The notes beneath the pieces were generated by a model. It saw nothing but the letters and a program-made list of their open reading frames with translations, made no database searches and was not told the origin of the DNA. A DNA stretch of 53,120 nt. Origin: Escherichia coli (GTDB lineage: Bacteria > Pseudomonadota > Gammaproteobacteria > Enterobacterales > Enterobacteriaceae). Location: NCBI RefSeq assembly GCF_003334255.1, contig NZ_QOWU01000036.1; one strand, written 5' to 3'. The position numbers were made by a program, and so were the translations under genes. The stretch's first letter is position 1; each line of letters begins with the position of its first letter. Below, piece after piece: positions 9,209 to 11,509 of this stretch.

Positions 9209-9880
9209 TCAGCCACCCATTGAACGAGAAGAGGTACCGGTTGCACTACGCTGCATAGTGCTTTGTTTGGCAACAGATTCACCAAAACCGCCACGGGTAA
9301 CGGTAGTGGTGGTCGCCGGTTTTGGTGCCATTGCCGTCTTCGGTACGGTCATGGTGCGGCCTGGCTGGGCTGCGCCATAGTTTTTACCCGTCGCGTCGGT
9401 ATATTTACCGTAAGCCGGACTGGCTGGGTTTTTCGAGGAGAACAGCGGCTGCTGTGCAAATCCCGCGCCGCCGCCCATCAGACGCCCCATCATGTAACCG
9501 GCCATCAGCGGCATCCAGAAACTCCCGCTGGATTGCTGGGCCTGCGCCTGGTTTTCTGGTGCCATGCCAGCCTGGGCTGGTGCCTGCTGGCACTGACCTT
9601 CACCAAATTCAGCAACACAGTCTTCACGGGTGGCGTATTTCGGCGCAGTACGTTCGGCTTCTTTCAGCGCATTGTTGTACGCGGTGGTACATTCGGCGCT
9701 TTTGCCTGGGTTTGCAGCTGAACAGTCGTCAGCATTTTGATAGAGAGACACTGTTTCATCACTCTTTTCACAGCCAGCCAGCATAAAAACAGTGGCAACC
9801 GCGAGAGCGACTGGTGTCAGATGGCGTGCGCTCCAGTTTTTGCGGAACGATGCGTGGCGTATGGATTTTGTCCGTTTCAT
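9209..9880 (-). CDS. ygiB: DUF1190 family protein
   Basis: ORF 9209..9913 trimmed to [14 protein letters not shown] (223 aa); downstream of tolC in same direction. Confidence 0.85.
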
Positions 9881-10027
9881 TTTTGTCTTCCGGGACCAGT
9901 GGTAAATACCCATCAGAATAGAGGATGGCTGGTCGAAATTGAAGCGAGAAGGGGGAAGAATGCGGCAGATAACCCGTATCTTTACGTTGCCTTACGTTCA
10001 GACGGGGCCGAAGCCCCGTCGTCGTCA

Positions 10028-11509
10028 TCAGTTACGGAAAGGGTTATGACCGTTACTGGTGGTAGTGCGTGCGGATGTTTGCTGAACGACTGGTGCCGGG
10101 CTATCAGGCGCATAACCATCAGCAATAGCATTCTGTTCCGGCGTTTGCGGTGCAACGTTTTCCGGATTAGTGGAAACCGGTTTGCTCAGCGCATTGTTCA
10201 GTGCCAGCAGATCCTGCTCGTTCAACGTACCCAGAGCTGACTTAATATTCAGCTGATTAATCAGGTAGTTATAACGCGCATTCGCCAGCTCTTGCTTGGC
10301 GTTGTACAACGTGGTGGTCGCATCCAACACATCAACAATGGTACGCGTACCGACCGAGTAGCCCGCTTCCATCGCGTCTAATGAGCTTTGAGCGGAAACT
10401 ACGGCTTGTTTGTAGGCGTTAATGCTACTGATAGATGCATTAATGTTGTTGAAGGAGGAACGCACGGTCTGCACGACGCTACGATGGGCACTTTCCAGTT
10501 GCTCGCTGGCACCGACAAAGTTGTACTGTGCCTGTTTCACCTGCGAGTTAACCATTCCGCCCTGATAAATCGGCAGCGAGAAGCTCAGGCCAACTTTGTT
10601 CTGGCCCATATTGCTATCGTCATACTGGGTACCAGCGGCACCACGGGTTTTCGAACCGCTATAAGAGGTGTCAGAAATCCCGGTAGAAGCCGTTAAATCC
10701 AGAGTCGGTAAGTGACCATCCTGCGCCTGGCGAATTTGCTCGCGCGCCAGGTCCTGGCTCAAGCGTGCCTGTAACAGCGACAGGTTGCGTTTTTCGGCTT
10801 CTTTCAGCAGCGCGTTAACCGGCTGTGGTTTGTCGGTTTTAAAGTTTTCGACATTCAGCGCAGCCAGTTCCGGATAGTAGTTACCGGTGATCTGGCGCAG
10901 CTGCTCTACCGCGTTATCAAGGTTATTACGTGCGGTCACTTCGTTCGCCAGCACGGTATCGTACTGTGCGCGGGCGTTCTGCACGTCGGTGATCGCTACC
11001 AGGCCCACGTTAAAACGTTGGGTGGTTTGATCTAATTGACGGTAGATCGCTTCTTTTTGTGCCTGTGTATAGGAAAGAACGTCAATAGCATTCAACACGT
11101 TGAAATAAGCGGTCGCGGTGTTGAGGATCAAGGTTTGCTGATCGGTCTGATACGTGACGTCCTGAATCCCTGCTGCTTTTTCCTGCAGCGTTAACGCACG
11201 CCATTTCGACATATCAAAAATGGATTGAGTTAACTGCAAGGACGCACTGGTCGCGTTAGAGTTGATGCCGTTCGCGTCGCGGTAGCCGTTGCTATAGGTG
11301 TAATCTGCACCTAAACCTAGCTGTGGCAGTAATGGACTGCGCGCTTCATTAATTTTTTCAAAGGCAGCATCACGATCGGCGGCAGACTTACGCAATTCCG
11401 GGTTACTAAGGCGTGCTTGCTGATAAACTTGCATCAGGTTCTCGGCCTGGCTCAACGAACTGAACCCAGAAAGGCTCAGGCCGATAAGAATGGGGAGCAA
11501 TTTCTTCAT
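10028..11509 (-). CDS. tolC: Outer membrane efflux channel TolC
   Basis: ORF 10028..11548 trimmed to MKKLLPILIGLSLSGFSSLSQA (493 aa) signal peptide; ENLMQVYQQARLSNPEL start of mature TolC. Confidence 0.95.
   Translation of the reverse strand: MKKLLPILIGLSLSGFSSLSQAENLMQVYQQARLSNPELRKSAADRDAAFEKINEARSPLLPQLGLGADYTYSNGYRDANGINSNATSASLQLTQSIFDMSKWRALTLQEKAAGIQDVTYQTDQQTLILNTATAYFNVLNAIDVLSYTQAQKEAIYRQLDQTTQRFNVGLVAITDVQNARAQYDTVLANEVTARNNLDNAVEQLRQITGNYYPELAALNVENFKTDKPQPVNALLKEAEKRNLSLLQARLSQDLAREQIRQAQDGHLPTLDLTASTGISDTSYSGSKTRGAAGTQYDDSNMGQNKVGLSFSLPIYQGGMVNSQVKQAQYNFVGASEQLESAHRSVVQTVRSSFNNINASISSINAYKQAVVSAQSSLDAMEAGYSVGTRTIVDVLDATTTLYNAKQELANARYNYLINQLNIKSALGTLNEQDLLALNNALSKPVSTNPENVAPQTPEQNAIADGYAPDSPAPVVQQTSARTTTSNGHNPFRN

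What the first reader, a model, noticed from the sequence alone, without database searches (positions are those of the whole stretch)
9768..10028. Short ORF overlapping the tolC-ygiB junction
An 86-codon ORF in another frame spans the tolC-ygiB intergenic region and overlaps 113 nt of ygiB. Its position corresponds to where I recall a historical small-gene annotation (ygiA). The sequence is proline/arginine-rich and low-complexity, more like an out-of-frame read than a real protein, but the tolC terminator hairpin also lies here, so the organisation of this operon junction deserves a check.
Basis: inference. Interest (0 to 1): 0.2.

Follow-up and report, generated by a model that had tools for sequence, protein, structure and literature searches.

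The report
Phantom gene ygiA at tolC-ygiB junction
The 86-codon reading frame is real as sequence, but it is the withdrawn E. coli "ygiA" annotation: a chance frame lying over regulatory DNA (the end-of-tolC hairpin, a stress-response binding site and the ygiBC promoter), so it is ordinary and already explained.

Summary
The ORF exists exactly as described: minus strand, 9768-10028, 86 codons. Its ATG overlaps the tolC stop (TGATG) and its last 113 nt overlap ygiB. It is the historical ygiA/b3036, which is absent from the current MG1655 record and from the sampled RefSeq annotations.

It does not behave like a gene. A comparable frame exists in only 4 of 77 Enterobacteriaceae species. The tolC-ygiB spacer length varies from 139 to 226 nt without respect to frame. 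In the ygiB overlap, substitutions follow the ygiB frame. There is no Shine-Dalgarno sequence and no family hit.

What is conserved under the ORF is non-coding:
- A stable hairpin after tolC (10001-10020), where published Term-seq and SMRT-Cappable-seq data place the tolC 3' end, inside a Rho-dependent termination region.
- A CpxR-type box, GTAAG-N5-GTAAA (9981-9995), present in 77/77 species.
- A weak sigma-70 promoter (-35 at 9938-9943, -10 at 9915-9920). Its predicted start, 9908, equals the published ygiBC transcription start (MG1655 3179716).
- The ygiB ribosome-binding site.

The box-to-promoter distance takes only values one helical turn apart (45-47, 56-58 or 67-68 bp).

Verdict: already known, low interest.

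The parts
10028..11509 (-). tolC coding sequence (stop TGA at 10030-10028)
   Evidence: RefSeq annotation of an identical E. coli stretch; ORF.
9768..10028 (-). The flagged 86-codon ORF, i.e. the historical ygiA/b3036. Judged a chance (phantom) ORF.
   Evidence: b3036 missing from NC_000913.3; frame present in only 4 of 77 species.
10001..10020 (-). GACGGGGC-UUCG-GCCCCGUC hairpin 5 nt after the ORF's ATG. It marks and protects the tolC mRNA 3' end and has no U-tract.
   Evidence: Fold of -18.6 kcal/mol. A stable hairpin of varying, often unrelated sequence is present at this place in 77/77 species. The terminator scan did not list it because it lacks a T-run.
9996..9999 (-). Published 3' ends of the tolC transcript: MG1655 3179628 (Term-seq) and 3179625 (SMRT-Cappable-seq).
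   Evidence: Supplements of PMC7815308 and PMC6131387. Coordinates were mapped through an identical 401-nt stretch of MG1655.
9981..9995 (-). GTAAGGCAACGTAAA, a CpxR-type direct repeat (GTAAA-N5-GTAAA consensus), centred about -80 from the ygiBC transcription start.
   Evidence: It is the only match in the window, against 0.12 expected. GTAA-N6-GTAA is present in 77/77 species and the 20-nt block is almost invariant. A putative CpxR site and CpxRA-dependent ygiB-lux expression were reported in C. rodentium.
9950..9977 (-). Variable linker with indels between the box and the promoter. Its length changes in steps of about one helical turn.
   Evidence: Low conservation and 60-70% gaps. Box-to-(-10) distances are 45-47, 56-58 or 67-68 bp in 74 species.
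9913..9966 (-). C-rich, G-poor stretch (22 C, 6 G), a candidate Rho utilisation (rut) region. It gives the ORF its Pro/Ser/Leu-rich middle.
   Evidence: Composition. A bicyclomycin-sensitive termination region was reported at this junction. The rut role is inferred.
9938..9943 (-). -35-like hexamer TTCAAT of the internal ygiBC promoter (17-bp spacer).
   Evidence: Conserved as TTCAAT, TTCATT or TTTAAT. It is below the consensus-scan threshold.
9915..9920 (-). -10 hexamer TATTCT (TATCCT in most other species).
   Evidence: Conserved T1, A2, T3 and T6. It lies at -12 to -7 relative to the published transcription start.
9907..9908 (-). Transcription start of the ygiBC mRNA (published MG1655 3179716 = window 9908; 9907 if that table is 0-based).
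   Evidence: SMRT-Cappable-seq operon table: 3179716 to 3181617/8 covering b3037|b3038; mapping.
9885..9891 (-). GGAAGAC, the Shine-Dalgarno region of ygiB.
   Evidence: Conserved block 9903-9881; position.
9209..9880 (-). ygiB coding sequence (223 aa, DUF1190 lipoprotein). Its first 113 nt are overlapped by the ORF.
   Evidence: RefSeq annotation. Period-3 conservation follows the ygiB frame.

Best explanation
The ORF is a chance open frame, the withdrawn 'ygiA' annotation, lying over the regulatory junction between tolC and ygiBC. Reading along the minus strand, the junction works in four steps.

1. tolC translation stops at 10028, and a stable hairpin follows at 10020-10001.
2. About half of the tolC transcripts end here. 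Rho terminates in the untranslated, C-rich spacer, and the RNA is trimmed back to, or stops at, the hairpin base (3' end at 9996-9999). The rest read through into ygiBC.
3. A CpxR-type box at 9995-9981 lies about 80 bp upstream of a weak sigma-70 promoter (-35 TTCAAT, -10 TATTCT). That promoter starts a separate ygiBC mRNA at 9908, which lets the Cpx envelope-stress response raise ygiBC expression independently of tolC.
4. The ygiB ribosome-binding site and signal-peptide codons follow.

The ORF's amino acids are these elements read in a frame that happens to lack stop codons.

Shown here: the ORF, the anatomy, non-conservation of the frame, and conservation and helical phasing of the box and promoter. 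Taken from papers: the 3' ends, the Rho dependence, the transcription start, and Cpx dependence in Citrobacter rodentium. Inferred: direct CpxR binding in E. coli, and the rut role of the C-rich block.
For: Frame not conserved:
- An ATG-initiated ORF that runs from the tolC stop into ygiB exists only in E. coli, C. braakii, Citrobacter sp. Cu233 and C. amalonaticus (4 of 77 species-level loci).
- The closest Escherichia sp. has ACG in place of the ATG.
- Sibling Citrobacter species carry a 1-nt indel that moves the ATG into another frame, giving 50 codons.
- Salmonella has no such ORF.
- Spacer lengths of 139-226 nt do not respect the frame.

Selection follows ygiB:
- Column entropy at ygiB codon positions 1/2/3 is 0.23/0.11/1.01.
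- Amino-acid identity is 0.84 in the ygiB frame and 0.55 in the ygiA frame, at 0.81 nucleotide identity.
- 29 of 77 loci have a premature stop in the ygiA frame inside the overlap.

Annotation and homology:
- b3036 is absent from NC_000913.3.
- It is absent from all 15 RefSeq records sampled across 5,426 genomes.
- There is no significant NCBIfam hit.

Non-coding conservation:
- The box is present in 77/77 species.
- A hairpin is present in 77/77 species with many different sequences.
- The -10 and -35 elements are conserved, and the box-to-(-10) distance falls in three classes one helical turn apart (resultant length R = 0.92 at a period of 10.5-11 bp).

Published data:
- The transcription start 3179716 is exactly 7 nt after the -10 I had predicted from conservation.
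- There is a 3' end at 3179628 with Rho score 2.16, marked as inside a Rho termination region, and intrinsic-terminator score 1.32.
- tolC-only, read-through and ygiBC-only transcripts were all detected.
- A roughly 300-bp ygiB upstream fragment drives CpxRA-dependent lux expression, and a putative CpxR site lies between tolC and ygiB in C. rodentium.
Against: - The ORF is intact in most E. coli and Shigella sequences on record (a cluster of 137 members, some seen on at least 1,000 contigs). E. coli diversity is too shallow for that to mean selection.
- The TGATG overlap with the tolC stop resembles a translational-coupling signal.
- The codon-usage score (0.12 bits per codon) is below every whole gene in the window (minimum 0.167, mean 0.40) but above most out-of-frame windows, so that test is inconclusive.
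- Direct CpxR binding to the E. coli box has not been shown in anything I could read.
- The promoter scores only 7 of 12 against consensus and was not called by the scan.
- No ribosome-profiling data could be examined.
Confidence: 0.9

Rival explanations
1. ygiA is a genuine, young, lineage-restricted protein-coding gene of E. coli and a few Citrobacter species. It would be translated on tolC-ygiBC read-through transcripts by termination-reinitiation at the UGAUG overlap.
For: - The ATG overlaps the tolC stop.
- The ORF is intact in most E. coli and Shigella records, and an 86- or 93-codon frame is present in three Citrobacter species.
- Read-through transcripts covering the ORF exist.
- The codon score is not as low as a typical off-frame window.
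Against: - The frame is lost in 73 of 77 species. These include the nearest Escherichia sp. (ATG to ACG) and sibling Citrobacter species (1-nt indel).
- There is no Shine-Dalgarno sequence in the 20 nt upstream (CATAACCCTTTCCGTAACTG).
- A hairpin of -18 kcal/mol starts 5 nt after the ATG.
- Substitutions in the overlap are those expected if only ygiB is under selection.
- Conservation in the intergenic part comes in motif blocks with non-triplet indels.
- TGATG/TAATG at the tolC stop in other species opens ORFs of 2 to 93 codons in all three frames.
- The gene has been removed from the curated K-12 annotation and has no family match.
Confidence: 0.04
2. The conserved blocks are RNA elements rather than DNA sites: a structured or sRNA-targeted leader, or a tolC 3'UTR-derived small RNA.
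For: - A discrete, stable 3' end is detected at the hairpin.
- Sequence conservation is high at 9913-9948 and 9978-9997.
Against: - There is no Rfam match, even at E<=1, in 9000-11800.
- The tolC 3'UTR up to the mapped end is only about 32 nt.
- The mapped ygiBC transcription start (9908) lies downstream of both conserved blocks, so they are absent from the ygiBC-only mRNA.
- The helical-turn quantisation of box-to-(-10) spacing is a DNA-level property.
- The hairpin's sequence is not conserved; only its presence is.
Confidence: 0.04
3. The GTAAG-N5-GTAAA repeat is bound by a regulator other than CpxR (another OmpR/PhoB-family protein), or it is conserved for a reason unrelated to Cpx.
For: - Binding has not been shown directly.
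- The preprint calls the site 'putative'.
- tolC itself is listed under BaeR in one study.
Against: - The sequence matches the CpxR consensus in 9 of 10 specified positions.
- ygiB transcript and protein levels and ygiB-lux activity depend on cpxRA in C. rodentium.
- It is the only such repeat in the spacer in every species examined.
Confidence: 0.1

Closest known systems
ygiA (b3036, EcoGene EG11163), the original K-12 hypothetical gene between tolC and ygiB
   Same: The position, strand and length (86 aa) are identical. Database members of the same 90% cluster carry the name ygiA. A Term-seq 3' end 32 nt into this ORF is labelled 'internal ygiA'. Operon names tolC-ygiABC persist in papers.
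   Different: Nothing differs in sequence. The annotation has been withdrawn: NC_000913.3 jumps from b3035 to b3037, and the sampled RefSeq annotations do not call it.
CpxR-activated promoters of the Cpx envelope-stress regulon (for example cpxP, degP; consensus GTAAA-N5-GTAAA; from my own knowledge of the literature)
   Same: There is a direct repeat GTAAG-N5-GTAAA upstream of a weak sigma-70 promoter, within 100 bp of the transcription start. Cpx-dependent expression of ygiB was reported in C. rodentium.
   Different: The site lies inside what RegulonDB-style annotation treats as one operon (tolC-ygiABC). The box is centred rather far upstream (about -80). Direct binding in E. coli has not been shown in anything I read.
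Rho-dependent terminators whose 3' ends are set by a protective stem-loop (described in genome-wide 3'-end mapping studies; from my own knowledge)
   Same: The read-through is bicyclomycin-sensitive. A discrete 3' end lies 2-5 nt after a G+C-rich hairpin without a U-tract, with a C-rich, G-poor untranslated stretch downstream.
   Different: Termination is only partial: coverage is 197 upstream versus 110 downstream without bicyclomycin. In several other genera the same position carries a canonical hairpin plus U-tract.

Membership tests
Real protein-coding gene | Open frame with start and stop codons | tested here: met
   ATG at 10028, stop at 9770-9768, 86 codons. ORFs of this length are common by chance in the window.
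Real protein-coding gene | Frame maintained in related species | tested here: not met
   A comparable ORF is present in 4 of 77 species loci. The ATG is lost in the nearest Escherichia sp., and other Citrobacter species and Salmonella carry frameshifts or stops.
Real protein-coding gene | Substitution pattern shows purifying selection in its own frame | tested here: not met
   In the overlap, variation sits on ygiB third positions (entropy 1.01 versus 0.23 and 0.11). Amino-acid identity in the ygiA frame is 0.55, against 0.84 in the ygiB frame. The intergenic part has non-triplet indels.
Real protein-coding gene | Ribosome-binding site or other initiation signal | tested here: inconclusive
   There is no GGAG-like motif in the 20 nt upstream, and a hairpin starts 5 nt after the ATG. 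The UGAUG overlap could in principle allow reinitiation.
Real protein-coding gene | Codon usage like the host's genes | tested here: inconclusive
   The score is 0.12 bits per codon, below all 47 long ORFs (minimum 0.167, mean 0.40) and at the 13th percentile of length-matched gene starts, but above most off-frame windows.
Real protein-coding gene | Evidence of translation (ribosome profiling, peptides) | not testable with these tools
   One N-terminomics supplement had no ygiA entry. The retapamulin profiling supplements are not held.
CpxR-regulated promoter | GTAAA-N5-GTAAA direct repeat | tested here: met
   GTAAGGCAACGTAAA at 9981-9995 is a single hit in the window against 0.12 expected. 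The repeat is present in 77/77 species.
CpxR-regulated promoter | Box positioned upstream of a mapped transcription start, on a fixed helical face | tested here: met
   The published start 3179716 equals window 9908, so the box spans -87 to -73. Box-to-(-10) distances are 45-47, 56-58 or 67-68 bp across 74 species.
CpxR-regulated promoter | Expression depends on CpxRA | not testable with these tools
   This was reported for C. rodentium ygiB by lux fusion, RNA-seq, microarray and SILAC. I read no E. coli data.
CpxR-regulated promoter | Direct binding of CpxR~P | not testable with these tools
   The preprint describes the site only as 'putative'.
Intrinsic (Rho-independent) terminator | G+C-rich stem-loop | tested here: met
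   An 8-bp G+C-rich stem with a UUCG loop folds at -18.6 kcal/mol.
Intrinsic (Rho-independent) terminator | U-tract immediately after the stem | tested here: not met
   The tail is CUGAACGUAAGG. The hairpin was not listed by the terminator scan, and its published intrinsic-terminator score is 1.32, below 3. Kosakonia, Phytobacter and others do have UUUUU here.
Rho-dependent terminator | Read-through increases with bicyclomycin | not testable with these tools
   Published values: Rho score 2.16-2.30, p = 1.6e-7, marked as in a Rho termination region.
Rho-dependent terminator | C-rich, G-poor untranslated RNA downstream of the stop codon | tested here: met
   The stretch 9966-9913 has 22 C and 6 G in 54 nt, inside a 147-nt untranslated spacer.

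The most novel reading that the evidence does not exclude
On tolC read-through transcripts, ribosomes finishing tolC might reinitiate at the overlapping UGAUG and translate the ygiA frame across the C-rich spacer. The peptide would be irrelevant, but ribosome occupancy would block Rho loading. The amount of tolC-ygiBC read-through would then be tied to tolC translation, a leader-peptide-like device placed between two genes. This would apply in E. coli and a few Citrobacter species only, since other species have short or differently framed ORFs after the stop.
Probability: 0.04. Interest if true: 0.4.

Novelty: already known. Interest (0 to 1): 0.08.

Why it matters
The finding matters little in itself. 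It confirms that a withdrawn annotation (ygiA/b3036) was rightly withdrawn, although the name still circulates in operon names (tolC-ygiABC) and in some annotation files used for transcriptomics.

The useful by-product is a single coherent map of the tolC-ygiBC junction. It combines three published datasets with comparative evidence: the CpxR-type box is present in 77/77 Enterobacteriaceae species and is kept on one helical face relative to the mapped ygiBC promoter. That supports the view that ygiBC is a separately Cpx-controlled unit rather than simply the tail of the tolC operon.

Tried and rejected
- Rfam search at E<=1 over 9000-11800 gave no hit, so no known RNA family explains the conservation.
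- The consensus promoter scan found 0 sites. The real promoter is too weak (7 of 12 matches) to pass it, so the scan was uninformative rather than negative.
- Codon-usage log-odds were ambiguous.
- A sigma-E promoter was considered because of TCTGA at 9917-9913. I rejected it by inspection: no GGAACTT-like -35 lies 16 nt upstream, and the first T is variable across species.
- An alternative promoter directly abutting the box (-10 CATTCT at 9962-9957) was rejected. That stretch is gapped in 60-70% of species, and the mapped start lies 50 nt further downstream.
- The Cappable-seq supplement (PMC4782308) had no entry near 31796xx-31797xx.
- The Thomason dRNA-seq and Weaver profiling papers were not found under the PMC ids I tried. 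The Meydan supplements are not held. The TRAINSPOTTER supplements contain no ygiA or ygiB entry.
- I ran no further search on the ORF, because the 77-species DNA comparison already answers the conservation question.
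Full report
**Observation**

The window is E. coli. The stretch 9600-10200 matches all 5,426 complete E. coli genomes at 95-100% identity, and 9700-10100 is identical to K-12 MG1655.

The minus strand carries three annotated genes:
- tolC, 11509-10028
- ygiB, 9880-9209
- ygiC, 9203-8043

The flagged ORF is real: 9768-10028, minus strand, 86 codons. Its ATG (10028-10026) shares one base with the tolC stop codon (TGATG). It crosses the 147-nt tolC-ygiB spacer and ends 113 nt into ygiB, one base out of frame with it.

An ORF of this length is not remarkable. The window has 80 ATG-ORFs of at least 86 aa, and 33 of them lie outside the set of 47 long ORFs that tile the window. 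Longer ORFs also overlap the same spot on the opposite strand.

**Identity with ygiA**

- The exact protein is in the public collection, in a cluster of 137 E. coli and Shigella sequences. Some of these are named 'Putative uncharacterized protein ygiA'.
- Papers list tolC-ygiA-ygiB-ygiC as b3035-b3038, and the operon name tolC-ygiABC is still used.
- The current MG1655 RefSeq record goes from b3035 (tolC) directly to b3037 (ygiB), so b3036 is gone.
- None of 15 RefSeq records sampled evenly through the ranking annotates anything between tolC and ygiB.

**Is the frame conserved?**

One scan of species-representative genomes with YgiB returned 80 loci, all Enterobacteriaceae. In 79 of them tolC lies immediately upstream; one locus (L031) is too short to show it. 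After removing E. coli duplicates, that short locus and one locus with a 626-nt insertion, and adding the window itself, 77 species-level junctions remain.

- The spacer ranges from 139 to 226 nt with no respect for reading frame.
- An ATG-initiated ORF running from the tolC stop into ygiB exists only in E. coli, Citrobacter braakii, Citrobacter sp. Cu233 (both 86 codons) and one C. amalonaticus (93 codons).
- The nearest Escherichia sp. has ACG instead of ATG and no alternative start.
- Four other Citrobacter species carry a 1-nt indel that puts the ATG in a different frame, giving 50 codons.
- Salmonella and all remaining genera have no such ORF.

Within the 114 nt shared with ygiB, column entropy by ygiB codon position is 0.23, 0.11 and 1.01. 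Amino-acid identity to E. coli averages 0.84 in the ygiB frame but 0.55 in the ygiA frame, at 0.81 nucleotide identity. In 29 of 77 loci a stop interrupts the ygiA frame.

Within E. coli, the visible variation includes a change in the number of ACG repeats after the ATG (MTTT, MTTTT, MTTTTT), a lost ATG, and a truncated end.

The other gene-like tests were also negative or inconclusive:
- There is no Shine-Dalgarno motif in the 20 nt before the ATG.
- A hairpin of -18.6 kcal/mol begins 5 nt after the ATG.
- NCBIfam gives nothing significant.
- Codon usage is inconclusive, at 0.12 bits per codon against a gene mean of 0.40 and a minimum of 0.167.

**What is conserved instead**

The 77-species alignment shows block-wise, non-coding conservation.

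1. *Hairpin after the tolC stop.* Every species has a stable hairpin in the same place (all at or below -14.6 kcal/mol, median -23, median z -4.4), but the sequences are many and unrelated. E. coli and several Citrobacter species have GACGGGGC-UUCG-GCCCCGUC. Salmonella, Enterobacter and others have REP-like elements. Kosakonia and Phytobacter have hairpins followed by UUUUU. In E. coli the tail is CUGAACG, so the terminator scan did not list it.

2. *CpxR-type box.* An almost invariant 20-nt block, AACGTAAGGCAACGTAAAGA, contains GTAAG-N5-GTAAA (9995-9981). GTAA-N6-GTAA is present in 77/77 species. The pattern occurs once in the window, against 0.12 expected. It matches the CpxR consensus GTAAA-N5-GTAAA (consensus from my own knowledge).

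3. *Variable linker.* The stretch 9977-9950 is poorly conserved and rich in indels.

4. *Promoter block.* The conserved block 9948-9913 contains TTCAAT, a 17-bp spacer and TATTCT (TATCCT in most species).

5. *Ribosome-binding region.* The stretch 9903-9881 is conserved and contains GGAAGAC.

From the -10 hexamer I expected a transcription start near 9908.

The distance from the box centre to the -10 hexamer takes only the values 45-47 (9 species), 56-58 (42) and 67-68 (23). These are steps of one helical turn, with resultant length 0.92 at a period of 10.5-11 bp. The -10-to-ATG distance, by contrast, varies continuously from 31 to 45. Species are phylogenetically related, so this is not a formal probability. 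Still, three length classes with nothing in between is what a face-of-helix constraint between an activator site and a promoter predicts.

**Published experiments that bear on the junction**

*SMRT-Cappable-seq (PMC6131387 supplement)* lists three transcript types:
- a transcript from 3179716 to 3181617/8 covering b3037|b3038, flagged as a novel operon;
- a tolC-only transcript from 3178000 to 3179625;
- full-length b3035-b3038 transcripts starting at 3178000 and 3178073.

Position 3179716 is window 9908, which is exactly the predicted start. The base there is T and the next is A, so the table may be off by one.

*Term-seq (PMC7815308 supplements)* places a 3' end at 3179628, which is window 9996, 5 nt past the stem. 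It reports:
- a Rho score of 2.16, marked as in a Rho termination region;
- an intrinsic-terminator score of 1.32, where a score above 3 suggests intrinsic termination;
- coverage of 197 upstream versus 110 downstream without bicyclomycin, and 161 versus 194 with it.

The RNA just downstream (9966-9913) has 22 C and 6 G in 54 nt, the composition expected of a Rho loading site. That role is my inference.

*C. rodentium (bioRxiv 10.1101/2021.12.13.472529 and 10.1101/2022.08.05.503015)*:
- ygiB transcript and protein levels depend on cpxRA.
- A roughly 300-bp fragment upstream of ygiB drives CpxRA-dependent lux expression, while tolC-lux behaves differently.
- The authors note a putative CpxR site between tolC and ygiB and conclude that ygiB has its own promoter.

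I could not fetch the C. rodentium sequence to confirm it is the same box. However, in all 77 loci examined the spacer holds just one GTAA-N6-GTAA match, at the aligned position.

**Mechanism**

Transcripts from the tolC promoters either end at the hairpin or continue into ygiBC. Those that end do so through partial Rho-dependent termination in the untranslated C-rich spacer, with the 3' end set at the stem. Independently, CpxR~P bound at about -80 activates a weak sigma-70 promoter whose mRNA starts 28 nt before the ygiB ATG.

This start lies downstream of the longer 234-aa version of the ygiB ORF (ATG at 9913) that the ORF listing reports. That supports the annotated 223-aa start at 9880.

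The 'protein' [17 protein letters not shown]...[14 protein letters not shown]... is the hairpin, the CpxR box, the C-rich linker and promoter, and the ygiB leader and signal-peptide codons, all read out of frame.

**Comparison, novelty and verdict**

The ORF is the known phantom gene ygiA. The hairpin, the Rho dependence, the internal start site and the Cpx control have each been reported. New here are only the integration and the comparative support: the box in 77/77 species, the helical-turn spacing, and the turnover of hairpin sequences.

A residual possibility is that reinitiation at UGAUG puts ribosomes on the spacer and thereby modulates Rho-dependent polarity. The data do not exclude it, but it has no positive support, and other species have ORFs of 2-93 codons in all frames after the stop.

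Noticed in passing
window 9881-9913 (minus strand): the ORF listing gives ygiB as 234 aa starting from the ATG at 9913, but the published ygiBC transcription start (window 9908) lies downstream of that ATG. The ATG is also not conserved (TCTGAGCA in Citrobacter). The annotated 223-aa start at 9880 is therefore the right one for the promoter-proximal mRNA.
   Followed up: partly
window 10020-10027 (minus strand); proteins P0002, P0004, P0008: The ACG/GAC trinucleotide run between the tolC stop and the hairpin varies in copy number among E. coli strains (MTTT, MTTTT, MTTTTT in the ORF's frame). It is a small repeat-length polymorphism in the tolC 3'UTR.
   Followed up: no
L002 (CALAXC010000365.1), junction region: A contig binned as 'uncultured Clostridia bacterium' carries a 100% identical E. 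coli ygiB, so it is probably mis-binned or contaminated. It has a 17-nt deletion (GCTTCAATTTCGACCAG-like) that removes the -35 region of the ygiBC promoter.
   Followed up: no
L046 (CACSKA010000008.1): A contig labelled Chryseobacterium sp. 18061 carries an Enterobacteriaceae-type tolC-ygiB locus (85% YgiB identity). This is probably a mislabelled or contaminated assembly.
   Followed up: no
L029:2375-3000 (Enterobacter hormaechei subsp. hoffmannii): The tolC-ygiB spacer is 626 nt instead of about 190. The extra roughly 450 nt has no convincing ORF and looks like repetitive intergenic elements inserted between the tolC end and the CpxR box.
   Followed up: partly
hit H15, NZ_CP025268.1: One record labelled K-12 MG1655 matches only bases 187-601 of the query, i.e. 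ygiB and the spacer but not the end of tolC. This suggests an engineered or deleted tolC in that strain. One further match among the 5,432 places lies on a plasmid.
   Followed up: no
window 9737-10240 (+ strand): A 167-aa ORF (139 aa from its first ATG) runs antisense across the same tolC-ygiB junction. It is another long chance ORF in this G+C-balanced region.
   Followed up: no
loci L009, L012, L015, L024, L033, L044, L051, L053, L072, L074 (first 60 nt after tolC stop): In Kosakonia, Phytobacter and related genera the post-tolC hairpin (ACGGGGGC...GCCCCCGT) is followed by UUUUU, a canonical intrinsic terminator. E. coli, Citrobacter and Salmonella lack the U-tract. The termination mode at this junction may differ between genera.
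   Followed up: partly
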